A stretch of 32,000 bases of DNA from an uncultured Lentisphaeria bacterium (GTDB lineage: Bacteria; Verrucomicrobiota; Lentisphaeria; JABSQK01; JAJFLO01), in NCBI GenBank assembly GCA_951812855.1, contig OX638337.1, positions 1,770,001 to 1,802,000 on the forward strand, given 5' to 3'. Positions 5,589 through 16,223 of the stretch are shown here, piece after piece. The notes beneath the pieces were generated by a model, which searched no databases, was not told the origin of the DNA, and saw nothing but the letters and a program-made list of their open reading frames with translations. The position numbers and the translations under genes were made by a program. Numbering within the stretch: the stretch's first letter is position 1; the number at the start of each line of letters is the position of its first letter.

Positions 5589-6992
5589 TTACTTTTCATA
5601 GTTAAGGCGTTTGTCCAATGTTGTTCGACTCATCCCGAATACGCGTTGCACCTCAGATTTATTACCCTCACAGTGATCCAGAGCAGATTTTGCAAACATA
5701 TAGTCTATTTTTCTTTCGATAATCTTCGGGTCGTGCCCCTGTTCAATTTCGTGTTTAATTAGAGATTGAATTTTCGAACTTAAATTATTTAAAGAGGGTT
5801 TTACATGGCTGCTGATATTTTTTTTAGGTTGGAGGAGGAGGGTGAATAGTTCAGTTTCCAGGGTTGAGCTTTCAGCACAAACTGCTGCACTTTGCATTAA
5901 TTGGTATAATTCACGAATATTTCCGGGCCATGAATAACTCTGGAGATAATCAATTGCATGGGGTGTTAAAGTCAAGGGAGGAACGTTCAGCAGGATTTGG
6001 AGTTTTGACAGAAAATGTTGTACCAATAAAGGAATGTCTTCAATTCGTTCGCGAAGTGCGGGTAAATCAATCTGACATCCTTTGATTCTATAAAACAGAT
6101 CCTCCCGAAATGTCTTTTTTTCTATCGCTTCTTCAAGATTACAATTTGTCGCTGCAATTATACGAATATCAACATGTAACGTTTCTTCTCCCCCGACCCG
6201 TTCGAATTGACCGTCTTCGAGTACCCGCAATAATTTAGATTGCGTATCCAGGGGCATATCACCGATTTCATCAAGGAACAATGTCCCGCCATCTGCACGT
6301 TCGAAATATCCTGTTCGCTGTTTAAGAGCACCGGTGAATGCACCTTTTTCATGACCAAATAATTCACTGTTTGCAAGTTCCGATGTGATTCCAGCACAAT
6401 TCAATGTGACAAACGGTGTTTTGTGTCGCGGTCCCTGGTTATGAATCACTCTTGCGAGTAACCCTTTACCCGTACCGGTTTCACCCAATATTAGAACTGA
6501 AATAAGATCAGCCGGTGCTATTTTTTTAACACTTTTAATCGCCTTTTTTATACTTACTGACTTCCCGATAATTTCCTGAATTACCGGTTCATTCTGTTCG
6601 TAGTCATTTTCTATTTCAAAAACTGAGAAATCAGATGTTACAATGCTGTCCGGCAGATGTTTTGAAATGGAATCATTCTCTAATTTGAATTCGTATTCAA
6701 GATGACCAAATCGAATGAGATCACCATCTGACAAAGGCTGTTTTGTTTGCTTCTCAAGCCGATTGAATGTGTGGAGCAATCCCTTCTTCTTCCACCATGT
6801 CCCATGTTTGCTTGCTGAATCATATAAACAAAATTCTCCATTTGTTTTTTCTATTACAGCATGAAACCTGGAAATATCGATGTCACCCGAAATCGTGATA
6901 AAACAGGAGCTGCTGCGTCCGATTTCATTCTTACCGTCCTGCAGTACATATTTTTCGGTGGATTTAACTTTCTGAAGAATGCCTTTTTCCAT
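5589..6992 (-). CDS. Sigma-54-dependent transcriptional activator (bEBP) with an N-terminal FHA domain, an AAA+ core and a C-terminal HTH
   Basis: An FHA-like N-terminus spans about aa 20-100 ([24 protein letters not shown]...[12 protein letters not shown]...DGDLIRFG). The AAA+ core shows Walker A GETGTGKG (aa 170-177), an intact GAFTGA (aa 217-222, nt 6327-6344) and Walker [12 protein letters not shown] Fis-type HTH lies at aa ~430-465. There is no receiver domain. Confidence 0.9.
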
Positions 6993-7187
6993 GAACGTTA
7001 TTTCTATGGCTGTGGCTACTATAAAATTATTTGCTGAAGAAATAAGTTTTCAGCATTGTATAAATAGTAAACTGTTACCGATATCTTAATTTATCCAAAT
7101 AGGATAAAGAACGTTTTATATTGATTGTGAAAAATAAATTCTGAAAATTATCAAAAACTGTACTCTGTTCCCGTAACATTTTTGTAT

Positions 7188-8732
7188 TCAATAGATTACA
7201 CCGAGATTACGGATTTCTACTGTTTCAGAATAATTTTCATTCAATGGGTTTGTAAACAATAATTTGAGTATCTGTATGCGTTTCACATCATCTTCCGTAA
7301 AATGACGTGAGTCAAGCTGAGGAAACGATTTTACCATATTTGAAATATTAAAACGAAACGACGTCCATTCACGGTTTACTAATTTTGAATCGTGCAGGCC
7401 TGATTCCAAATTTGCATCATCTAATGTTGAGATACCGGCATAGACACGTGTACCAGAACCGTGCTCCCCTTTGATATCAACCCTGAATTCCAGATTCCCT
7501 TCAACGTTTAGCGGTTCGTTAAACGTGACCATCACACCAACTCCCCACTGCGAATCATACCAGGAGACCTCTATTGCAAGTTTAGTGTTTTCAGGATTGA
7601 CATTTGAACTCAGTATGCCCGTACCAAAAGTTTTCCAATTTTCATCAAAGCGAACAAATGAAAGCTCATCGGTATCATTGACAACCGCATCATTAACCGT
7701 ATCGCTTGCGTTCAATTTGGGAGAATCGCTCAGACTAATATCAATTGCAGAAACCGGTGTATCCGGTTCCGGAATAATCGTTTCAGAATCACTATCCGTC
7801 TGAGTAACGACTAATTGCTGTTCCTCCTGAGAGAGGGCATCCGGTACGTTAATAACCTGAGTAATTGACTTCTGAGGTTTACTGTTGTTACTATTCCGGG
7901 ATAGTGAGAGAATAATAATTGCCATGACGAATAAAAAACTTAGAGGCAAATATAATTTGGAAATTTTGTTGGCATTTTTCGCAATTTTTACCAAGACTAC
8001 CGAGATATCATCTTTTGCCCCGCGCTCTTTTGAGATATCGATAAACTCTTTAGCAATAGACTCAACACCTTTTGTTTTATTATTTTTTAGAATATCTGCC
8101 ACTTCGCTATCACTTAGATGTCTGTTCAGACCGTCAGAGCAAAGCAGGAAAAGGTCATCTGCATTCACTTTTATTTTCGTTGAGTTCAATCGTAAATCTG
8201 ATTTAATGCCGACAGCATTTGTAATCCTGCCTTTTATAATAGAGGGGACCCTGGTTTCATCTTCATATCCCATTTGTGCGGCCATGCTGTGGTCCTGGGT
8301 GAGTCGTTTAAGGGAGTTTCGGCGAAACCTGTAAATCCTGCTGTCACCGGCATGCAATACCTGTGCGGACCCATTTTGTGGTTCCATTATCAATATTGCC
8401 ACTGTAGACCCCATCCCTTCAATATCGTTGGAATGGATTGTTTTGTTAACATCAGAAATTGCTGTTGTTATCGAATCTAAAACATTAAAATGACTGTAAT
8501 TTTGGGCAAATGACTCACATTCATGGGTGATTGAGTTGACGATTAAATCACTTGCCTCTTTACCTCCGGCTGCCCCCCCGATCCCGTCAGCGACACAAAA
8601 AACACCATAATTTTGATCGTACCAACTGGTATGAGAATCCTCATTTTCTGACTTTGTCGCACCTTTTTGGCTGAGGGCAGCACTGTGTTCAATACTGAAC
8701 GGGGAATTTAATAGAGATGTTATAGGATTCAT
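7188..8732 (-). CDS. Membrane-anchored PP2C-family Ser/Thr phosphatase with an extracytoplasmic beta-sandwich (CBM/CIA30-like) C-terminal domain
   Basis: PP2C motifs are present: ENEDSH, FCVADGIGGAAGGKEAS, VLHAGDSRIY, LLCSDGL and GAKDDISVVLVKI. One TM helix lies at aa 260-277 (LYLPLSFLFVMAIIILSL, nt 7902-7955). An acidic S/T/D-rich linker follows, then a ~160-aa C-terminal domain (nt 7191-7664). Confidence 0.9.
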   Translation of the reverse strand: MNPITSLLNSPFSIEHSAALSQKGATKSENEDSHTSWYDQNYGVFCVADGIGGAAGGKEASDLIVNSITHECESFAQNYSHFNVLDSITTAISDVNKTIHSNDIEGMGSTVAILIMEPQNGSAQVLHAGDSRIYRFRRNSLKRLTQDHSMAAQMGYEDETRVPSIIKGRITNAVGIKSDLRLNSTKIKVNADDLFLLCSDGLNRHLSDSEVADILKNNKTKGVESIAKEFIDISKERGAKDDISVVLVKIAKNANKISKLYLPLSFLFVMAIIILSLSRNSNNSKPQKSITQVINVPDALSQEEQQLVVTQTDSDSETIIPEPDTPVSAIDISLSDSPKLNASDTVNDAVVNDTDELSFVRFDENWKTFGTGILSSNVNPENTKLAIEVSWYDSQWGVGVMVTFNEPLNVEGNLEFRVDIKGEHGSGTRVYAGISTLDDANLESGLHDSKLVNREWTSFRFNISNMVKSFPQLDSRHFTEDDVKRIQILKLLFTNPLNENYSETVEIRNLGVIY

Positions 8733-8929
8733 CTATTGGGATTTACTACTTTCAATTCAGCCGGTTTCCCGGAACTTGTTCGATTATAATTTTTTGTAAT
8801 TCATTGGGCCCGGATATGTTGACAGAAAGACTCTGTTTATATGTCAATTGCTTCGAAAGAGAATTTTTAGTGTCCCGCTGAAACGATTCTGTTTCAGTCA
8901 AGTTATGCCTGTGCTCAAATCTACATATT

Positions 8930-8958
8930 TAATTTTGGGGAATTATATACTTAACTCC
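8930..8958. repeat. Left end of the R-M cassette, with direct repeat TAATTTT (8930-8936) followed by terminal inverted repeat ggggaattatatacttaactcc (8937-8958)
   Basis: The reverse complement of 8937-8958 is ggagttaagtatataattcccc. It aligns with 10187-10211 (ggagtcaagtatgtatataattccc) at 20 of 22 positions, with a 4-nt insertion (atgt) in the right copy. The 7-mer taatttt immediately outside is repeated exactly at 10212-10218. Confidence 0.75.
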
Positions 8959-8985
8959 AAAACATACACAATGTGGCGTATGTTT

Positions 8986-9522
8986 TTATGAAAAACATGA
9001 CTGGCACCATGTTTGGAATTGCACCATGTCCATAACCATTATTTTCCGATCATCATTTTTGGTGCGCATTTTTCTAGTTTCCACCGCTTTTTTTAACCAG
9101 TATAACGCCCCCTTTTTCCAACCCTTTCCATCAATTAAGATGATGATCTCTTTTTCCTCCCAACGCTCAATTGCGTTGAGATAAACATAGGGCAATTTTT
9201 CATCTACACTACCGCTAACAGCTTGCCATTTGCACTCTACCCTGCAAAATATATTGTTTTGTGGGTCAGATATTATAAATTCACTCCTACTTAAAGACTG
9301 GGAAGAAGGAGTTGGTACATGTTCAGTTTCAGCAACTTTATAAATTGATATATATGGTGCATTTTTAATCAGGTATCTCTGTTTTTTTTGTGCTTGTGTT
9401 AGTTTTATCCATTCACGATAGGGTATAATATCAAACCCTCTTGGTATTAGAGCGTTGCTAACAACCCCCTCAAGAATTTTCCCAGATTTATTGGCGTTTG
9501 AACCTTGACTAGGCATTGTCAT
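8986..9522 (-). CDS. Putative type II restriction endonuclease (PD-(D/E)XK fold)
   Basis: The 178-aa ORF has a candidate catalytic motif D86...E96-C-K98 (SEFIISDPQNNIFCRVECKWQ) followed by GSVDEKLPY. Its ATG overlaps the stop codon of the upstream methyltransferase gene (ATGA at 9519-9522), implying translational coupling. The family and specificity are not recognisable by eye. Confidence 0.55.
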   Translation of the reverse strand: MTMPSQGSNANKSGKILEGVVSNALIPRGFDIIPYREWIKLTQAQKKQRYLIKNAPYISIYKVAETEHVPTPSSQSLSRSEFIISDPQNNIFCRVECKWQAVSGSVDEKLPYVYLNAIERWEEKEIIILIDGKGWKKGALYWLKKAVETRKMRTKNDDRKIMVMDMVQFQTWCQSCFS

Positions 9523-10130
9523 CTAACTTTAATGCAAGTGCCATGCACTTTGAAATGTGTTTTGAATTTTTTATATTGTTCACCAAAATAAAAAAACACC
9601 TGACCCCGTGTGTTGTTGCTGACCACCTTATGATCGGTGTTCCAAAAACTAATACGATGATGGGTCAAGCACAACCCATTACAGCGGGCGATGATTGCCT
9701 GAAACCAACGTGTTTCTGTGGCGTTATTAGTCAAAATAATACCTGATTGTATATGCCCTGTCTTGTATTCATTTAGATACTTATTGACACAATCAATGAT
9801 TAACTTGGCTGAGTAGGGTGGGTTCATAAAAACAGAGACCCGTTTTGCTACTGCCCAGCTTTGATTTAACCCATTAGTATCCTCATTAAAATAATATTTT
9901 GCTTTTACGATTTTATTTGCCTGCGGACTTGAAAAAGGATCCAATATAATCTGTCCCATCACTGATTTCGCACTTTCTATATACTCTTCTGGCGTGAACC
10001 AGGCATCGCTCTTTCGATTATGACTAGGAGTGCGTCCGATATAGCCAAGACGATTTTTATTGGCTATACTCCTAGTCACTGGATTAGGACATGAGCGATG
10101 ATTAAATGTGGATATGGTATTGTCTTGCAT
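9519..10130 (-). CDS. DNA N6-adenine methyltransferase of the phage Dam-like family (small, single-domain)
   Basis: The 203-aa ORF shows WFTPEEY, ILDPFSS and catalytic motif IV NPPYS (aa 103-107, nt 9810-9824). This order is typical of the small phage-type Dam family (WxTP ... DP ... NPPY). The target sequence is unknown. Confidence 0.8.
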   Translation of the reverse strand: MQDNTISTFNHRSCPNPVTRSIANKNRLGYIGRTPSHNRKSDAWFTPEEYIESAKSVMGQIILDPFSSPQANKIVKAKYYFNEDTNGLNQSWAVAKRVSVFMNPPYSAKLIIDCVNKYLNEYKTGHIQSGIILTNNATETRWFQAIIARCNGLCLTHHRISFWNTDHKVVSNNTRGQVFFYFGEQYKKFKTHFKVHGTCIKVR

Positions 10131-10167
10131 TAGATGAGTTCCTGATTTAACGCCTTTATTATGATAG

Positions 10168-10194
10168 ATTATATCAGGCGTCTGTTGGAGTCAA
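10168..10194 (-). promoter_or_regulatory. Candidate sigma-70-type promoter for the MTase/REase pair, with the -35 element contributed by the right TIR
   Basis: The minus strand reads TTGACT (10194-10189), then 15 nt, then TATAAT (10173-10168), about 38 nt upstream of the MTase ATG at 10130. The 15-nt spacing is shorter than the optimal 17. An inverted repeat ACGCCT/AGGCGT (10150-10155 and 10176-10181) brackets the -10 element. Confidence 0.3.
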
Positions 10195-10218
10195 GTATGT
10201 ATATAATTCCCTAATTTT
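10187..10218. repeat. Right end of the R-M cassette, with terminal inverted repeat ggagtcaagtatgtatataattccc (10187-10211) followed by direct repeat TAATTTT (10212-10218)
   Basis: See the left-end entry for the alignment. The repeat ends 15 nt from the kinase stop codon (10233-10235). A further partial copy of the TIR tip (tatataatccc, 10221-10231) sits just outside the direct repeat. Confidence 0.75.
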
Positions 10219-10232
10219 GATATATAATCCCT

Positions 10233-13200
10233 TTACTGATCACGAATAGCTGTTGCCATTTTAGATACATCAGTTTGAGATTGACTGTTTAATTCCAATA
10301 TTCCAAATGTTGAAGGATTTCGAGATTTAAATCCCGGGGAGGATGAAATCAAGGTTTTTTTATCCCGATCAGAATCTGCAACAACAATATTAAATCCCAA
10401 CTGATACTCGGGGAAAAAATTTGCTTCCTTCTCATTATAAGGAGTATTAAAAAATTGTTCGTCAGAATCGGAATAAAGGACTCTGTTTTTTCCCATTGAT
10501 ACGGTTTTATTGTTGTAGAGCACCGGGAATGGAATTTCTATTTCCAAAGTATAACCATCAACTGATTTCGATGCGGCTGTTTTTATTTCCCGATTTAAAT
10601 CTGTACTCATTAACGGTATTGATACTGTGGTTTCAGGGGAATTTTTATCAAAATCACCCGGATTTACAAGTAATAAAAAGTCATCGCCGGACATAACACT
10701 TTCTGTAAAATCTTCAGACAACTGTAAATCCAGCCACAGTTCAATATGATCACGATCTTTAACACCGGCCGTCACATTTGTTTCGCTGAGATCTAAATCA
10801 AAAACCCGAAATGCCCAATAAATATAATCTTTATTCCACGCACTATAGTATTCGCATGAAATTGTGTCATTGACAGATTCTTTTTCTGTCAAATTTGATG
10901 TTGTTGACATTACAGCCGGTTCTAAATGTTGCCAATCTTTCAGATTACCATCAACCGATATCAACTGATTGGATTGATAAGAAACAAATCGTGTTAATTC
11001 AGTTTCCGAATTCCTCCATCGTAATAAATTCTGCGGCAATTTTTTTTCTTTGTGAAGATTCATATAAGACATAAATGAATCAATGACAATTCCCCCAAAT
11101 GCATTTTGATTGGTGTAATGATTTGTAACTAACTGAAGTTGCTCTTCCATTGATTTCCAGCCTTCTTCATAAAATGTATTATGTCGAAAAAAATGAATAC
11201 CATCGGCGAAATTTCCAGTTTGATTTGCAATTATCGTTTTTTTAGATACCTGGTTTGCAAATTTTATACAGTTCTCAGACGAATTAATAATTGAAAGGGC
11301 GTTATCATAATAATCTGATAAAATTGTGTAATCAACAATAGAAATAATCTCCTCCAATAACTTCAAATCTGTATTCATTTCACGTGAAAGCATGAAACTT
11401 AATTTGAAATTCTGACCTGGGAATGTCGCAATAAGACCGTTGATTTTTTTTAGCAAAATTAATAAGTTTTCCTGAAACGCCTTGTCACCAGCGATTTGAG
11501 CTGACTGATCTGCATTGAGACCAATTAATAAGCCTTCTATTTTTTGAGCATCCCGGGTTAATTCGTTAAACTCCAATATGCTGCGTATTTGCCGATGTAT
11601 TTCAGAATGTAAGTCTTTTGATGACCAATCCTCTTTGATCATGAAGAGATTTGGAGAAATCTCCTTAGTTTTACATTCATTCAGGAACTGGATTAGGAGA
11701 TTTTCGTTCCGTGAATCTTTAATAAAATAATGATCCGGATTATGGGTTAAAACAAATACAGTATCAATTGCAGCTGTTTCACATAATGAAAATAAATGAC
11801 GCTTTATGATCGGATATAAAACGGGATTTACATCTCTGATTATTAACCCTCGGGAAAGTACAGCATTAGACTCTGCTTCAGGATAGATTACATCATTGCC
11901 TATTTTATCTGACAGGAACATTAGGTCATCTATATAAACAACACCTTTTCCGATATTGTTAAAGGAAAAATTCAGGGAAATAACCTGACTTACGTCGTGC
12001 TCGGTTTTGACTAAATCTAAAGGGAAAATTATTTCCTGCCACTCTCGCGTGATTCCCTTAGGCAAAAAATACTCAGCCTGACCTAATGATATTAGCTGGG
12101 AATCAGATTTTTCGTTTTTATTGGTCACAGTTACTTCGAAGCTTTCATTCCCGACAGTGCCTTTTACCCAGAGTGAGAGCGTTGCGTATTTTTCAAGATT
12201 AAGCTCGTCGAACCGATAGATTAAATCACACATGCCGGCGATCTTATGATCATAAGATACTTTCATGGACATACCACGCTCGCCCTTGAAATATTCAAGA
12301 CTCTTTTTCGGGAGGATAAAATTCGGAGACTGTGCTGCAATTTCAATCCCGTTATTCAATGATAAATCGTTAAAATCGTCAATCAATTTATGACTGTTAT
12401 AATGAATTATTTCAGAAAATAATTTTGAGATGTCATGTCTTAATCTGTCCATGCTACCGGTTTTCACCGGTAATTGATTTAACCTTTCCCCCAATGCTGA
12501 TATTTCAGCAAAAAACAGAAGCTGATCATCCTTGATATCATGTTTGTTTAACGATTTCGGATAGTGATTCTGCAGATATAATAACTCTTTTCGGCATAGA
12601 GATTCAATCCAGATGATATCGTTTGTTGTAATACTTGATACGGAAATGTCCTGATAATTTTCAAAAATATTCCAGGCCAGATCAAAGTCATTACGATTAT
12701 ATCCTGAGAACGGTATTTTTTTCAAATGCCCAAACATATATGTATCTAAATCCCGTCTCAGTTCAGGTTCGGATTTTAAGTCAAAGTCCTGGAGGATCGT
12801 ATTTCTAAAATCAACCATATCCTGAATATTATTTCCTTTTTGGGTAATAATATTTTCACTTATACTTACGATGTGTTCATACACCAGATTCCCGAGTTTA
12901 GACAGATAAAGGAGACGGGTCGACTCAGCCAAACCGGCCTCTGTAATTACCTGGATTCGATGATAAAGAGCAGCCAGGCTGATTAACTGCTGTTCATTTG
13001 CAGTGCCCTGTAAAACAGTCTTAAATTCCGCAATCAAACCGGAGGATTGATTTTGTAAAAAAGAGTCAATAAACTGATAATAATCCTCTGATCTATTCAG
13101 CACATCATCAATAAAAAATTCATTCGGCTTATTTGCCTTTATCTGTTTCAAAGAGAACTTCAGAAACTCGATTGAATCCTGTGGATTACGATTCGCGATC

Positions 13201-16200
13201 ATCGCCATGCTTTCATACCAGGGATCCAGTTTATACCGATAATTATAAATCTGATTCAGTTTATCCGAATCATTTCTTAATGAATGAACTCCCATAAAGC
13301 CCAGCACGAAAGTCAGTGTCAAAAAACTGTATCTGAGAACCTTCATTGTCCAGTCAAATCGTGACGGAACCGGAATGAGATTTGTAATCGGTGTATCAAA
13401 TGATTCAGAGGTATTTCCCCGAGATTTCAGGCGGGATAATTTTCGTAAATTTTTTGAAATTTCACGGCGACATCCAACGACATTTGAATACCGGCTTCCG
13501 GGATCGGGGTGAAGCATTTTTTCAAAAATTTTCAGCGTTCCGGAATCAAACGGGTGATTTAATTTCGGCACCCACCACTTTGCCCCCTTTTTCTTTACCC
13601 ATGAACTTCGTTTAACACACAATTTTTCCCAGTTTGATTCCGGCAGTCTCCATGGATAGGCAGATTGTCCGTTTAAGGTTTCAAACAAACAGAGCCCCAG
13701 ACTGAATATATCTGTTCTGACATCGCCTCTTTCACCGGTTATAATGATTTCCGGTGCCATATATTCGGGTGTTCCGGGAATTGCACCATTTGTACTCTCA
13801 CCCGTATTATCCTTAGCAATTCCCAGATCCAACAGTATGGGAACATCATCATCGTTTATGAATAAATTATCCGGTTTAACATCTCGATGAATAAACCCAT
13901 TCTTATGGCAATGCTCAACGGCTGACAGGTATCCCAGAAACCACCTGAGACCTCGTTCGACATCAATTTTATAGTCGTTCTCCACATCTTCAATTGCATT
14001 TTTGAGAGTCATTCCCCGGAGATATTCCATGACTAACAAAGGTGGACGCTGAATGGTTACATCCATTTGATTGTGGTCTGAGGCGACGTCAATGAATTTT
14101 ACAATATTTTTATGTCGTAAAGATTTTAATATTTTAGATTCATCATTTGCTCGTTCTATAGCTGATTTACGTTTTGAAAAAGATGCATTTTCTGTTCTCT
14201 TACTTACTTTTTGAGGGAACAGTTCATCCTTCAGGCTCTTCATTACAACACTGTCACCGTTACTTAATTGTCTGGCTTTATGAACATCTGCATGTCCTCC
14301 CGTTTCAACAATCTTTTCCAGATATTCATAATGATCATTTGAACCAATAACCACATTGCCAAATTTTTTGTCAATAAGCTTTGCATTGACTAACGATTCC
14401 AGGCGATTAATCGTCTCATTAAGGGCTTTTGGTTGACTTAACATTTTCAAAAGAATCCGGCTGAGTTCCGGTAAACTTGATAATAATAATTCTTTATCGA
14501 GTTCCGGTAACGTAATGTCATCGTTATCTGAATATTCATGTGCATGCCTGCGAAAATGTTTCAAATAGTCTGACGACAAATTATCAGGCGAAAAAATAAC
14601 GATCAACAGTTCGGCAACTCTCCTGATATCCTGCAGCTGATTCTGAATCAGTGACTCATCAGAGCAGCTGTTCAACGTCGAATGCCTAATCAAAATGTCA
14701 TTATTGAGATGCTCGAAAATAACAATTGAATGATGTGTCAGATTCCCGTGATAAAGTCGAAGCGAATGAATCATTTTAAGTTTGTTCAAAATCGCCTTTA
14801 AGACATTGAGAATATCTATAATATGATTTTGCTTAATGTGATTTTTAATAAAATCAGGTAAGAAAGTATGGTTTGTTATTGGATCAAAAACCGCCCATGA
14901 TTTGTTTGTTTTTATATCAGTAATGACCGATTGCGGCAGTCTCAGGTGATTCTCAAGTTGCTTAACAGATGTCAGTTTTTTGAGAATTTTCGTCCGATCA
15001 TCTAAATTTGAATCGGTTACATCCTCTAAAAAAACTATTTTCGGATTACTATGGTTTTTATTTAGAATGATTGACATCACCTTTGCCGCATCATTCTGAA
15101 TTAATTGATAATTCGGATAGCAATCCTTAACACGGTCCAGTAAGTGATCTAAACGACTTGCTTTGGATAAACATTTATTTATAAATTGAGCGTTTGCTTT
15201 TTTACCAGTTTCAGAAACTGCCCGACTATTTTTTACCCGGACCTGAGTTAACAGCTCATTGAGACCTTCCAGTACGTCTGAAAATGTTCTATAACGACAT
15301 TCCCGCACCCAGGCAAACCCCGCCTTAATATGGTGAATTAGTTCTTCATTCATACTCTTTACAGTTTCACCATCATAATCTACCGGTTGATTGAAACCGA
15401 ATGCTGCTGTCGGATAGAATTTTAGAATTTGACCGAGACTGAATCGCTGGGTCCGTTTCCTGGCTAAGCAACGTGTTACAAACGTCCTTAGCTTAGGATT
15501 ATTCTGGAAAACTTCATTCGAAAAATCAGTATTTTCTTCATTGTACGATTTTGCCCACTCTAATAATTCCAGAGGCGTATATGTCTTTAGTTCCGGAATC
15601 GGATTTTTACCGGTAATTGTTTCGTAAAAACACACACCAAAACTAAAGATATCCGATTCTTCATCCCCCCTGTTTGATGACGAATAGAATAATTCAGGGG
15701 CTATATAACCATAGGTGCCCGCAGCTAATCCGGAATCTGCTGTGGCTGTACCGTCTTTTTCAGTGGCAATTGAAAAATCTGTCAACTTTAATGTTCCGTC
15801 ATCACATATGAAGATATTGCTCGGTTTAACATCTCGATGGATAATCTTTTTTTCGTTTATTCTGTGAGCATAGTGAAGTGCCTTTGCACATTGGATAAAA
15901 ATGTTTATTGCATCTTCGAGGGGCACATTGTTAACACGGCTTAATTCTTCTTTCAGAGTATTGCCGTTGAGCCACTCCATGACAAGGAAATCACGGACAA
16001 TCCCACTCTGAGTTGCTCGAATACATGACGTGGCAGAAACAATACTCTCATGCTTGAGATTGATTGGGTAGGCTTCTTTTTTGAGAGATGCGTTATATTT
16101 CAATCGTTTTAATGCAACTCTATTACCTGTCTGCTTATCTTTTGCCTCAAAAACATCACCGAAACTACCGGACCCGATACATTCACCAATGCTGAAAATT

Positions 16201-16223
16201 TGTTCGATATCGATTACAGACAT
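10233..16223 (-). CDS. Giant (1996 aa) transmembrane receptor with tandem Ser/Thr protein kinase domains and a ~1000-aa carbohydrate-binding-type ectodomain
   Basis: Kinase 1 spans aa ~10-270 with GSGSFGDV, VALK (K39), HRD at aa 129-131 (nt 15831-15839), DFS at 149-151 (nt 15771-15779) and GYIAPE. A degenerate kinase-like segment lies around aa 380-560 (LRLYHGNLTHHSIVI). Kinase 2 spans aa ~632-905 with VVMK, HRD at 779-781 (nt 13881-13889), DLG at 799-801 (nt 13821-13829) and PEYMAPE. A TM helix lies at aa ~962-982 (nt 13278-13340). The ectodomain has a beta-sandwich CBM/CIA30-like module (aa 1318-1440), a glycoside-hydrolase-like alpha/beta region (aa ~1455-1745) and a CBM9-like C-terminus (DGNLKDWQHLEP...YIYWAFRVFD...DHIELWLD, aa ~1750-1975). 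Confidence 0.9.
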   Translation of the reverse strand: MSVIDIEQIFSIGECIGSGSFGDVFEAKDKQTGNRVALKRLKYNASLKKEAYPINLKHESIVSATSCIRATQSGIVRDFLVMEWLNGNTLKEELSRVNNVPLEDAINIFIQCAKALHYAHRINEKKIIHRDVKPSNIFICDDGTLKLTDFSIATEKDGTATADSGLAAGTYGYIAPELFYSSSNRGDEESDIFSFGVCFYETITGKNPIPELKTYTPLELLEWAKSYNEENTDFSNEVFQNNPKLRTFVTRCLARKRTQRFSLGQILKFYPTAAFGFNQPVDYDGETVKSMNEELIHHIKAGFAWVRECRYRTFSDVLEGLNELLTQVRVKNSRAVSETGKKANAQFINKCLSKASRLDHLLDRVKDCYPNYQLIQNDAAKVMSIILNKNHSNPKIVFLEDVTDSNLDDRTKILKKLTSVKQLENHLRLPQSVITDIKTNKSWAVFDPITNHTFLPDFIKNHIKQNHIIDILNVLKAILNKLKMIHSLRLYHGNLTHHSIVIFEHLNNDILIRHSTLNSCSDESLIQNQLQDIRRVAELLIVIFSPDNLSSDYLKHFRRHAHEYSDNDDITLPELDKELLLSSLPELSRILLKMLSQPKALNETINRLESLVNAKLIDKKFGNVVIGSNDHYEYLEKIVETGGHADVHKARQLSNGDSVVMKSLKDELFPQKVSKRTENASFSKRKSAIERANDESKILKSLRHKNIVKFIDVASDHNQMDVTIQRPPLLVMEYLRGMTLKNAIEDVENDYKIDVERGLRWFLGYLSAVEHCHKNGFIHRDVKPDNLFINDDDVPILLDLGIAKDNTGESTNGAIPGTPEYMAPEIIITGERGDVRTDIFSLGLCLFETLNGQSAYPWRLPESNWEKLCVKRSSWVKKKGAKWWVPKLNHPFDSGTLKIFEKMLHPDPGSRYSNVVGCRREISKNLRKLSRLKSRGNTSESFDTPITNLIPVPSRFDWTMKVLRYSFLTLTFVLGFMGVHSLRNDSDKLNQIYNYRYKLDPWYESMAMIANRNPQDSIEFLKFSLKQIKANKPNEFFIDDVLNRSEDYYQFIDSFLQNQSSGLIAEFKTVLQGTANEQQLISLAALYHRIQVITEAGLAESTRLLYLSKLGNLVYEHIVSISENIITQKGNNIQDMVDFRNTILQDFDLKSEPELRRDLDTYMFGHLKKIPFSGYNRNDFDLAWNIFENYQDISVSSITTNDIIWIESLCRKELLYLQNHYPKSLNKHDIKDDQLLFFAEISALGERLNQLPVKTGSMDRLRHDISKLFSEIIHYNSHKLIDDFNDLSLNNGIEIAAQSPNFILPKKSLEYFKGERGMSMKVSYDHKIAGMCDLIYRFDELNLEKYATLSLWVKGTVGNESFEVTVTNKNEKSDSQLISLGQAEYFLPKGITREWQEIIFPLDLVKTEHDVSQVISLNFSFNNIGKGVVYIDDLMFLSDKIGNDVIYPEAESNAVLSRGLIIRDVNPVLYPIIKRHLFSLCETAAIDTVFVLTHNPDHYFIKDSRNENLLIQFLNECKTKEISPNLFMIKEDWSSKDLHSEIHRQIRSILEFNELTRDAQKIEGLLIGLNADQSAQIAGDKAFQENLLILLKKINGLIATFPGQNFKLSFMLSREMNTDLKLLEEIISIVDYTILSDYYDNALSIINSSENCIKFANQVSKKTIIANQTGNFADGIHFFRHNTFYEEGWKSMEEQLQLVTNHYTNQNAFGGIVIDSFMSYMNLHKEKKLPQNLLRWRNSETELTRFVSYQSNQLISVDGNLKDWQHLEPAVMSTTSNLTEKESVNDTISCEYYSAWNKDYIYWAFRVFDLDLSETNVTAGVKDRDHIELWLDLQLSEDFTESVMSGDDFLLLVNPGDFDKNSPETTVSIPLMSTDLNREIKTAASKSVDGYTLEIEIPFPVLYNNKTVSMGKNRVLYSDSDEQFFNTPYNEKEANFFPEYQLGFNIVVADSDRDKKTLISSSPGFKSRNPSTFGILELNSQSQTDVSKMATAIRDQ

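What the first reader, a model, noticed from the sequence alone, without database searches (positions are those of the whole stretch)
8930..10218. Restriction-modification cassette with terminal inverted repeats and a perfect 7-bp target-site duplication, but no transposase
Seen in sequence: the reverse complement of 8937-8958 (ggagttaagtatataattcccc) matches 10187-10211 (ggagtcaagtatgtatataattccc) at 20 of 22 positions, with a 4-nt insertion in the right copy. Immediately outside both ends is the identical direct repeat TAATTTT (8930-8936 and 10212-10218). The cargo is exactly two translationally coupled genes, a Dam-like MTase and a PD-(D/E)XK nuclease. Established knowledge: TIRs plus a TSD are the footprint of DDE-type transposition, and R-M systems are known to behave as mobile units. 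A compact TIR/TSD-bounded R-M unit lacking its own transposase would be a MITE-like cargo element mobilised in trans. The insertion splits the kinase gene from the phosphatase and bEBP genes, so it may have uncoupled their co-transcription.
Basis: seen in the sequence. Interest (0 to 1): 0.7.

Follow-up and report, generated by a model that had tools for sequence, protein, structure and literature searches.

The report
Transposase-less IS1595 element carrying restriction-modification genes
A 1.27-kb restriction-modification gene pair sits between the ends of an IS1595-type jumping gene but has no transposase of its own, a known kind of hitch-hiking cassette, and here the mobilising family can be named.

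Summary
The target duplication is 8 bp, not 7: TAATTTTG at 8930-8937 and 10212-10219. The element spans 8938-10211.

Its left end is an exact 21-nt match to a terminal repeat, GGGAATTATATACTT(G/A)ACTCC. The right end is the same repeat with a 4-nt ATAC duplication. A scan of public genomes and one of viral contigs each hit their 120-stretch limit with this repeat.

In the fetched loci, 143 inverted pairs were found, and 100 have perfect 8-bp AT-rich duplications. Most pairs enclose an IS1595-family transposase, often with passenger genes that include DNA methyltransferases and restriction-modification pairs. Nineteen carry cargo but no transposase.

The window element is one of these cargo-only forms, a "mobile insertion cassette". 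It carries a Dam-like methyltransferase and a PD-(D/E)XK nuclease, probably specific for GATC.

Two related Lentisphaeria-like genomes have the kinase-phosphatase spacer without the cassette and without the repeat.

Mobilisation in trans by an IS1595-family transposase is well supported by analogy but is not shown in this genome.

The kind is already known: repeat-flanked restriction-modification units with 8-bp duplications were described by Furuta et al. in 2010, and cargo-only and passenger-carrying IS forms are also described. This is a new member of a known kind and is of moderate interest.

The parts
8930..8937 (.). Left copy of the 8-bp target-site duplication, TAATTTTG
   Evidence: Read directly. 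It is identical to 10212-10219. It fits the family's AT-rich target pattern N-W-W-N-N-W-W-N, derived from 100 perfect duplications.
8938..8958 (+). Left terminal inverted repeat, GGGAATTATATACTTAACTCC (21 nt), at the end distal to the cargo promoter
   Evidence: Exact match to the family repeat variant seen 22 times in genome loci. No match at up to 3 mismatches in 100 shuffles of the window.
8959..8986 (-). AT-rich hairpin (AAAACATAC / GTATGTTTT) overlapping the nuclease stop codon; a possible weak terminator
   Evidence: Seen in the sequence. The terminator scan did not score it, so function is only inferred.
8986..9522 (-). PD-(D/E)XK nuclease gene (178 aa), the putative restriction endonuclease
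   Evidence: PF20472 PDDEXK_11 at 1.1e-33 and a weak DpnII hit at 1.9e-4. The motif R-[VI]-E-C-K-W-Q...G-S-V-D-E-K-L-P is invariant across 16 homologs. Homologs sit next to an m6A methyltransferase in most loci. The structure model has pLDDT 78, but no significant PDB neighbour was found.
9519..10130 (-). Dam-like N6-adenine DNA methyltransferase gene (203 aa); its stop overlaps the nuclease start (ATGA)
   Evidence: PF05869 Dam at 4.2e-18. TIGR01712 phage N6A methyltransferase at 1e-13, below that model's cut-off. The motifs ILDPF and FMNPPYS are visible in the translation.
10168..10194 (-). Putative inward promoter: -35 TTGACT (10194-10189, inside the terminal repeat), a 15-nt spacer, then an extended -10 TGATATAAT (10176-10168), 38 nt upstream of the methyltransferase ATG
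   Evidence: Read from the sequence. In autonomous relatives, 33 of 64 transposase-proximal ends have a -10-like hexamer 16-18 nt after the same TTGACT, against 2 of 64 distal ends. Function in this element is inferred.
10187..10211 (-). Right terminal inverted repeat, GGGAATTATATAC-ATAC-TTGACTCC (25 nt): the family consensus plus a 4-nt tandem ATAC duplication
   Evidence: I3, I7. The consensus GGGAATTATATACTTGACTCC was seen 111 times in genome loci.
10212..10219 (.). Right copy of the 8-bp target-site duplication, TAATTTTG
   Evidence: Read directly.
10220..10231 (-). Partial third copy of the repeat tip (GGGATTATATAT), just outside the duplication; a possible relic or chance match
   Evidence: The background for the 13-mer with up to 2 edits is about 3.3 per window, so significance is marginal.

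Best explanation
Window 8938-10211 is a non-autonomous derivative of an IS1595-family insertion sequence. It is a 'mobile insertion cassette': two IS ends enclosing passenger genes and no transposase.

The passengers are a compact Type II restriction-modification pair. A Dam-like m6A methyltransferase comes first and a PD-(D/E)XK endonuclease second, with ATGA overlap. They are probably GATC-specific. They sit where autonomous relatives carry the transposase, directly behind the promoter whose -35 box lies inside the terminal repeat.

The cassette was inserted by an IS1595-family DDE transposase supplied in trans. That enzyme bound the 21-nt ends and made a staggered 8-bp cut at the AT-rich site TAATTTTG, in the spacer between a giant Ser/Thr kinase gene and its PP2C phosphatase partner, in a Lentisphaeria-like bacterium.

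The insertion predates the split of two strains that differ by 0.43% and postdates divergence from genus-level relatives. The genes look maintained by selection. The 4-nt duplication in one end may have since immobilised the element.

Shown here: the ends, the duplication, the family link, the gene-order-level empty sites, and the mobility of sister cassettes.

Inferred: supply of transposase in trans for this copy, GATC specificity, promoter use, and present immobility.
For: The ends and the 8-bp duplication are read in the sequence. Zero matches to the repeat in 100 shuffles.

The same 21-nt repeat occurs in at least 120 genome stretches from many phyla and at least 120 viral contigs. There are 143 inverted pairs, 100 of them with perfect 8-bp duplications that are 84.5% A+T.

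The roughly 305-aa ORF inside these pairs is an IS1595-family transposase: PF12762 at 1e-42, PF12760, and NF033547 at 193 bits against a cut-off of 75.

Of 107 elements, 48 have transposase plus cargo, 16 transposase only, 8 a partial transposase, 19 cargo without transposase, and 16 are MITEs.

Cargo includes N6/N4, C5 and D12 methyltransferases, Mom, methyltransferase+MvaI/BcnI, methyltransferase+SfiI and methyltransferase-HNH.

The same transposase-less methyltransferase cassette (L268 and L273, 91% identical) and the same MITEs are found at different sites with different duplications.

Empty kinase-PP2C spacers without the repeat are seen in L005-L008.

The strain locus L001 carries the same insertion. 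SNP density inside equals that of the flanks, and only 1 of 5 differences changes an amino acid.

On R-M identity: Pfam hits. The Dam-like partner is conserved in the closest nuclease homologs. In 62 of 81 loci the nuclease family follows a Dam-family D12 methyltransferase (TIGR00571, 284 bits), in 5 a PF05869 Dam, and in 3 an N6_N4 methyltransferase.

On concepts: MICs and MITEs can be activated by a cognate transposase, and passenger-carrying IS forms (tIS) were defined from the IS1595 family (PMC3129680; PMC11891212).
Against: No autonomous IS1595 copy could be looked for in the rest of this 1.95-Mb genome; only 32 kb of it was readable.

No second copy of this particular cassette was found. 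None of the 120 genome repeat-bearing loci searched with tblastn carries a homolog of these R-M genes; the viral loci were not searched. None of 80 metagenome loci with homologs of the nuclease carries the repeat.

The right end has a 4-nt duplication that may prevent transposase binding.

The empty sites come from relatives so diverged (62% and 40% PP2C identity) that the spacer does not align base for base. The pre-insertion sequence is therefore reconstructed, not observed.

Nuclease activity and specificity rest on family membership only. The fold search gave no significant hit.

The repeat loci were retrieved with an exact pattern, so the apparent ultra-conservation of the ends is partly an ascertainment effect.
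Confidence: 0.75

Rival explanations
1. The element arrived as an autonomous passenger-carrying IS (transposase plus R-M, as in L112 or L128) and lost its transposase gene by deletion after insertion. On this reading it was never mobilised in trans.
For: Forty-eight sister elements carry transposase plus cargo, several of them with R-M pairs. Eight elements retain partial transposase genes, so decay in place does occur.
Against: No transposase remnant is present. Only 56 nt separate the end from the methyltransferase ATG, and 27 nt separate the nuclease stop from the other end. The cargo sits exactly behind the end-borne promoter, as in 19 other clean transposase-less cassettes. Sister cassettes demonstrably insert at new sites.
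Confidence: 0.2
2. The R-M enzymes themselves, or host recombination at their cleavage sites, inserted the unit, and the inverted repeats are incidental. Furuta et al. (2010) left this possibility open for repeat-flanked R-M units.
For: Furuta et al. state they could not tell whether R-M products act as the transposase in such units.
Against: The ends are the exact ends of a transposase-bearing IS1595 clade. The 8-bp AT-rich duplication matches that clade's target pattern. Elements with the same ends carry unrelated cargo or none.
Confidence: 0.03
3. The repeats are a chance or regulatory feature of the kinase-PP2C spacer, and the R-M genes are ancestral there.
For: None found. The cassette's G+C content (37.6%) equals that of the window (38.1%).
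Against: Relatives lack both the genes and the repeats in the spacer. Zero matches to the repeat in 100 shuffles. The repeat is found in hundreds of unrelated loci.
Confidence: 0.01

Closest known systems
Transposon-like R-M units flanked by imperfect inverted repeats with an 8-bp target duplication (Furuta, Abe & Kobayashi 2010, NAR 38:2428; PMC2853133): a Xanthomonas oryzae Type II R-M with 65-bp repeats, and a Neisseria gonorrhoeae unit with 26-bp repeats
   Same: R-M genes lie between imperfect terminal inverted repeats. There is an 8-bp direct duplication, an empty site in a related genome, and no functional transposase inside. The authors raised the non-autonomous-transposon reading.
   Different: In those cases the repeats were unique to the unit and no mobilising family was identified. 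Here the ends are the exact ends of a widespread IS1595-family clade with autonomous, cargo-bearing and miniature members. The host is a Lentisphaeria-like MAG, and the R-M genes belong to different families.
Mobile insertion cassettes (MICs, e.g. MIC231 of IS231, Bacillus cereus group; De Palmenaer et al. 2004, cited in PMC3129680)
   Same: IS ends flank passenger genes unrelated to transposition. There is no transposase, and mobilisation is by the cognate IS in trans.
   Different: The IS family differs (IS1595 rather than IS4). The cargo here is an R-M system. Trans-mobilisation was shown experimentally for MIC231 (from my own knowledge) but is only inferred here.
Transporter IS (tIS) of the IS1595 family (Siguier, Gagnevin & Chandler 2009, Res Microbiol 160:232). 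From my memory of ISfinder's family table, the ISNwi1 subgroup has ends ggnnatTAT, 8-bp duplications and passenger-carrying derivatives
   Same: The transposase family matches (PF12762/NF033547 in sister elements). Duplications are 8 bp. The ends begin GGGAATTAT, which fits the remembered subgroup consensus. Passenger genes are common.
   Different: The window element has no transposase, so it is not a tIS. Subgroup assignment could not be tested because the 2009 paper and ISfinder are not held.
DpnII/MboI-type GATC R-M systems
   Same: An m6A methyltransferase is paired with a small PD-(D/E)XK endonuclease. The nuclease has a weak PF04556 DpnII hit. Its family pairs with D12 Dam-family, PF05869 Dam and N6_N4 methyltransferases. 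D12 and N6_N4 are the classes of the two DpnII methyltransferases, and PF05869-type phage Dam enzymes also methylate GATC (both from my own knowledge).
   Different: The DpnII hit is below Pfam's cut-off. No solved relative exists. GATC is not specifically depleted: observed/expected is 0.77 here against 0.74 in a relative without the cassette. Specificity is untested.

Membership tests
Non-autonomous IS1595-family element (mobile insertion cassette) | Terminal inverted repeats that match those of autonomous copies encoding the family's transposase | tested here: met
   The left end is an exact 21/21 match, and the right end is 21/21 plus a 4-nt duplication. Sister elements with the same ends encode PF12762+PF12760 / NF033547 transposases.
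Non-autonomous IS1595-family element (mobile insertion cassette) | Target-site duplication of the family's length (8 bp) | tested here: met
   TAATTTTG on both sides. 100 of 143 sister pairs have perfect 8-bp duplications with the same AT-rich pattern.
Non-autonomous IS1595-family element (mobile insertion cassette) | No transposase gene between the ends; passenger genes unrelated to transposition | tested here: met
   The only long ORFs between the ends are the two R-M genes, and the flanks between them and the ends are 27 and 56 nt.
Non-autonomous IS1595-family element (mobile insertion cassette) | Insertion polymorphism: an empty site in related genomes | tested here: met
   L005/L006 and L007/L008 have kinase-PP2C spacers of 153 and 68 bp without the genes or the repeat. 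The evidence is at gene-order level only, because the spacer is too diverged to align base for base.
Non-autonomous IS1595-family element (mobile insertion cassette) | A cognate autonomous IS in the same cell to supply transposase | not testable with these tools
   Only 32 kb of the roughly 1.95-Mb genome is readable. The window holds no other copy of the repeat.
Non-autonomous IS1595-family element (mobile insertion cassette) | Demonstrated mobilisation in trans | not testable with these tools
   Indirect support only: sister cassettes and MITEs lie at different sites with different duplications.
ISNwi1 subgroup of IS1595 | Subgroup end consensus (ggnnatTAT, from my memory) and transposase phylogeny | not testable with these tools
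   GGGAATTAT fits the remembered consensus. Neither ISfinder nor the defining paper is held.
MITE | Short (tens to a few hundred bp) and non-coding | tested here: not met
   The element is 1274 bp with two intact genes. True MITEs of the same family, 48-523 bp, exist elsewhere.
Type II restriction-modification system | DNA methyltransferase with catalytic and SAM-binding motifs | tested here: met
   PF05869 at 4e-18. The NPPY and DPF motifs are visible in the translation.
Type II restriction-modification system | Separate endonuclease with a nuclease catalytic core, genetically linked to the methyltransferase | tested here: met
   PF20472 at 1e-33. Invariant E-C-K and D-E-K motifs. Linkage to an m6A methyltransferase in about 70 of 81 homolog loci.
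Type II restriction-modification system | Structural similarity of the nuclease to a solved restriction enzyme | tested here: inconclusive
   The model has pLDDT 78. The best PDB matches have E >= 0.1. PD-(D/E)XK enzymes (MspJI, MunI, BamHI, Mus81) appear in the list but not significantly.
Type II restriction-modification system | Sequence-specific cleavage blocked by the cognate methylation | not testable with these tools
   Needs enzymology or methylome data. GATC is predicted from the partner methyltransferase families.

The most novel reading that the evidence does not exclude
The clade of IS1595-family elements that shares this near-invariant 21-nt end may be a specialised, cross-phylum vehicle for DNA-modification and restriction genes, moving between phage and bacterial chromosomes. 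In it, methyltransferase or R-M cargo repeatedly replaces the transposase behind the end-borne promoter. The resulting cargo-only cassettes ride on transposase supplied by autonomous copies. The Lentisphaeria cassette would be one output of that process. It would offer a general, previously unquantified route for horizontal spread of R-M systems and of phage anti-restriction methyltransferases.
Probability: 0.3. Interest if true: 0.6.

Novelty: new member of a known kind. Interest (0 to 1): 0.42.

Why it matters
How R-M systems move between genomes is only partly understood. Repeat-flanked R-M units with short duplications have been reported, but no transposase had been assigned to them.

This case links such a unit to a specific, widespread IS1595-family clade. 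That makes the trans-mobilisation model directly testable with a defined transposase and a defined 21-nt end.

It also shows a selfish R-M cassette lodged inside a conserved kinase-phosphatase-sigma54 activator operon, where it could affect signalling-gene expression.

Finally, the survey suggests that this clade often carries DNA-modification genes, including in viral contigs. That bears on phage-host arms races.

Tried and rejected
- An exact-protein look-up of the nuclease found nothing. A 99%-identical homolog led to the same locus in another strain, which is occupied, not an empty site.
- The homologous R-M pair in L002 and 80 metagenome loci with nuclease homologs were searched for the repeat. 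None has it. This cassette therefore seems to be a one-off capture rather than a circulating unit.
- The 120 genome repeat-bearing loci were searched for homologs of the window's R-M genes. None was found. The viral loci were not searched.
- GATC depletion was tried as a read-out of specificity. It is uninformative: 0.77 here against 0.74 in a relative lacking the cassette.
- PDB sequence searches for both proteins, and a fold search with an AlphaFold model of the nuclease, gave no significant relative.
- The promoter/terminator scan found nothing above background in the region. The promoter proposed here has a 15-nt spacer that the scan does not allow.
- A base-level alignment of the reconstructed empty site with L005 failed because the spacers are too diverged.
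- The IS1595 subgroup paper could not be read, and plasmid records hold only transposases at most 45% identical. No ISfinder name could therefore be assigned.
- Organism names for the relatives were not on record. LepA homologs place the host near Lentisphaeria.
- Composition does not mark the cassette as foreign.
Full report
**Observation.** On the + strand, 8930-8937 is TAATTTTG. It is followed by GGGAATTATATACTTAACTCC at 8938-8958. At the other side, 10187-10211 is the reverse complement of GGGAATTATATACATACTTGACTCC, followed by TAATTTTG at 10212-10219. The repeat finder recovers the two halves of the gapped inverted repeat as I3 and I7.

Between the ends lie two minus-strand ORFs. The first, 9519-10130, encodes 203 aa. 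The second, 8986-9522, encodes 178 aa. They overlap by ATGA. The first matches PF05869 Dam at 4e-18. The second matches PF20472 PDDEXK_11 at 1e-33, with a weak DpnII hit. No transposase lies inside.

The flanking genes, all on the minus strand, are a 1996-aa double Ser/Thr kinase (10233-16223), a PP2C phosphatase (7188-8732) and an FHA-sigma54 activator (5589-6992).

**Two corrections.** The duplication is 8 bp, not 7, and the repeat starts at GGGAATT (8938). The 4-nt 'insertion' in the right arm is a tandem ATAC duplication.

**Is it an insertion?**
- A 99.57%-identical copy of the locus from another strain (L001; also L003 and L004) carries the same cassette, ends and duplication. SNP density inside the cassette equals that of the flanks.
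- Only 1 of the 5 differences inside the R-M genes changes an amino acid. The insertion is therefore older than the strain split, and the genes look maintained.
- Orthologous loci in two more distant relatives keep the kinase-PP2C-activator order. These are GCA_021772675.1 (PP2C 62% identical) and GCA_021772635.1 (40% identical). Their spacers are 153 and 68 bp, with no R-M genes and no trace of the repeat.
- The spacers are too diverged to align base for base. The empty site is therefore shown at gene-order level only.
- LepA homologs place the host near Lentisphaeria.

**What are the ends?** A pattern built from the two arms hit at least 120 stretches in the species-representative genome collection. 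These come from Acidobacteriota, Alpha-, Beta- and Gammaproteobacteria, Planctomycetota, Verrucomicrobiia, Chloroflexota, candidate-phyla-radiation groups and others. The ungapped 21-nt consensus hit at least 120 IMG/VR viral contigs.

The 21 nt GGGAATTATATACTT(G/A)ACTCC are followed inward by unrelated sequences. When the partner end was allowed up to four mismatches, 143 inverted pairs were found. Of these, 100 have perfect 8-bp direct repeats immediately outside. The repeats are 84.5% A+T, in loci averaging 55% G+C, and follow the pattern N-W-W-N-N-W-W-N. The window's TAATTTTG fits this pattern.

Most pairs enclose a roughly 305-aa ORF starting about 49-80 nt from one end. It is an IS1595-family transposase: PF12762 at 1e-42, the PF12760 zinc ribbon, and NCBIfam NF033547 at 193 bits against a cut-off of 75.

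Among 107 elements whose duplications have at most one mismatch:

| Class | Count |
|---|---|
| Transposase plus at least 600 bp of extra DNA | 48 |
| Transposase only | 16 |
| Partial transposase | 8 |
| At least 600 bp, no transposase | 19 |
| Miniature, under 600 bp | 16 |

The loci were fished with an exact end, so the apparent invariance of the repeat is partly an ascertainment effect.

**Cargo.** Passenger ORFs are diverse: 74 clusters among 103 ORFs. Many of those annotated are DNA-modification or restriction genes:
- N6/N4 methyltransferases, the largest cluster of sizeable cargo proteins (7 elements)
- C5 and D12 methyltransferases
- a Mom-family protein
- methyltransferase + MvaI/BcnI endonuclease (L128)
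- methyltransferase + SfiI-type endonuclease (L112)
- a methyltransferase-HNH fusion with a P63C protein (L071, L115)
- a dCTP-deaminase-like protein, a PAPS reductase, KilA-N, ankyrin and membrane proteins

Seven of the annotated transposase-less cassettes carry one DNA-modification gene. A subset of them shares a 20-nt leader between the end and the ATG, while the gene behind it differs.

A transposase-less cassette (L268/L273) and related MITEs occur at different sites with different duplications. Non-autonomous members of this family therefore do move.

**Position of the cargo.** The repeat contains TTGACT pointing inward. At 33 of 64 transposase-proximal ends, a -10-like hexamer follows 16-18 nt later. 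This is seen at only 2 of 64 distal ends. The end therefore supplies the -35 box of the transposase promoter.

In the window, the end upstream of the methyltransferase has TTGACT, a 15-nt spacer and TGATATAAT, an extended -10 box. This lies 38 nt before the ATG. The R-M genes thus occupy the transposase's place. This promoter is inferred; the generic scan, which requires 16-18 nt spacers, did not list it.

Downstream of the nuclease there is only a weak AT-rich hairpin. Read-through into the PP2C gene remains possible.

**Is the cargo a restriction-modification system?** The methyltransferase has the DPF and NPPY motifs. The nuclease family has invariant E-C-K and D-E-K motifs.

The closest nuclease homologs (55-61% identical) keep the Dam-like partner. 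Across 81 loci, the nuclease is preceded by a D12 Dam-family methyltransferase in 62 (TIGR00571, 284 bits). It is adjacent to a PF05869 Dam in 5 (preceding it in 3, following it in 2) and preceded by an N6_N4 enzyme in 3.

D12 and N6_N4 are the methyltransferase classes of the DpnII system, and PF05869-type phage Dam enzymes also methylate GATC (my own knowledge). Together with the weak DpnII hit, this makes GATC the most likely specificity, as an inference. Word statistics do not help: observed/expected is 0.77 here and 0.74 in a relative without the cassette. No solved structure is related by sequence or fold.

**Uniqueness of this cassette.** None of the 120 genome repeat-bearing loci searched has homologs of these two genes. 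None of 80 metagenome loci with nuclease homologs has the repeat. This pairing of cargo and ends was seen only here.

**Mechanism.** The best-supported account is that an IS1595-family transposase, supplied in trans, bound the two ends. It inserted the 1274-bp cassette at TAATTTTG with a staggered 8-bp cut.

The main rival is that a transposase-bearing version inserted and then lost its transposase in place. That is less likely because no remnant is left and the cargo abuts both ends. It cannot be excluded.

Self-insertion by the R-M enzymes, and chance, are effectively ruled out by the identity of the ends with those of a transposase-bearing clade.

A partner transposase in this genome could not be sought. 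The ATAC duplication in one end may mean the copy is now immobile.

**Comparison with what is known.**
- Furuta et al. (2010) described 'transposon-like' R-M units flanked by imperfect inverted repeats with 8-bp duplications and empty sites. They raised the non-autonomous-transposon idea but found the repeats only in the units themselves.
- Mobile insertion cassettes and MITEs are recognised IS derivatives that a cognate transposase can activate. Passenger-carrying 'transporter IS' were defined from the IS1595 family.
- From my memory of ISfinder's table, the ISNwi1 subgroup has ends ggnnatTAT, 8-bp duplications and passenger-carrying forms, which fits. I could not check this.

The element is therefore a new member of a known kind. 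What is added is the explicit link between a repeat-bounded R-M cassette and a named transposase family. A preliminary picture also emerges of a widespread clade whose cargo often modifies DNA.

**Verdict.** Confidence in the cargo-cassette reading is about 0.75. Interest is moderate (0.42).

Noticed in passing
window 1-32000 (whole window); compare L005: GCGC is strongly under-represented in the window (5 observed against 25.8 expected, O/E 0.19), and CTAG is too (0.20). The relative L005 has GCGC at 1.13. This may reflect a GCGC-specific restriction system elsewhere in this lineage.
   Followed up: no
window 10220-10231 and 8888-8906: A degenerate copy of the repeat tip (GGGATTATATAT) lies just outside the right duplication. 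A 19-20-nt stretch in the left flank resembles the inner repeat plus leader of the right end (17/19 plus one indel). These may be relics of an older insertion in this spacer, or chance; background is about 3.3 loose 13-mer matches per window.
   Followed up: partly
window 5589-16223; L005 3857-13573; L007 3918-13244: A conserved three-gene unit is shared by Lentisphaeria-like genomes. It comprises a roughly 2000-aa protein with two Ser/Thr kinase domains and a CBM9 domain, a 514-601-aa PP2C phosphatase with a long C-terminal extension, and an FHA-sigma54 activator.
   Followed up: no
L268 2259-3327, L273 732-1800, L308 9945-11102, L276 7892-8941, L239 11961-12588 (viral contigs): These transposase-less cassettes share the terminal repeat and a roughly 20-nt leader (consensus CACAGCGGAATCAGCGGGTT before the ATG; diverged in L239). 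They carry different DNA-modification genes: D12, N6_N4 and C5 methyltransferases, and Mom. This suggests modular swapping of cargo behind a fixed junction.
   Followed up: partly
L022 5202-5234: One element sits immediately after a truncated repeat tip (tgGGAATTATAT|GGGAATTATATAC...). It has inserted into the AATTATAT of another copy's end, which implies self-targeting of the AT-rich repeat.
   Followed up: no
L040 1466-2196 (Alphaproteobacteria MAG OZ252220.1): Three same-strand copies of the terminal repeat, with identical inner sequence, are spaced exactly 355 bp apart. This is a tandem array of a one-ended unit.
   Followed up: no
L129-L208 (metagenome loci with PF20472 nuclease homologs): The same small nuclease family is partnered with three unrelated m6A methyltransferase families: D12 Dam-family in 62 loci, PF05869 in 5 and N6_N4 in 3. 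Several public records name the nuclease '4-diphosphocytidyl-2C-methyl-D-erythritol kinase', which looks like a propagated misannotation.
   Followed up: partly
L077 1632-2782; L110 867-2981: Other cargo in the same repeat family includes a dCTP-deaminase-like gene and a PAPS-reductase-domain gene. Both protein types are associated with anti-phage defence (from my own knowledge).
   Followed up: no
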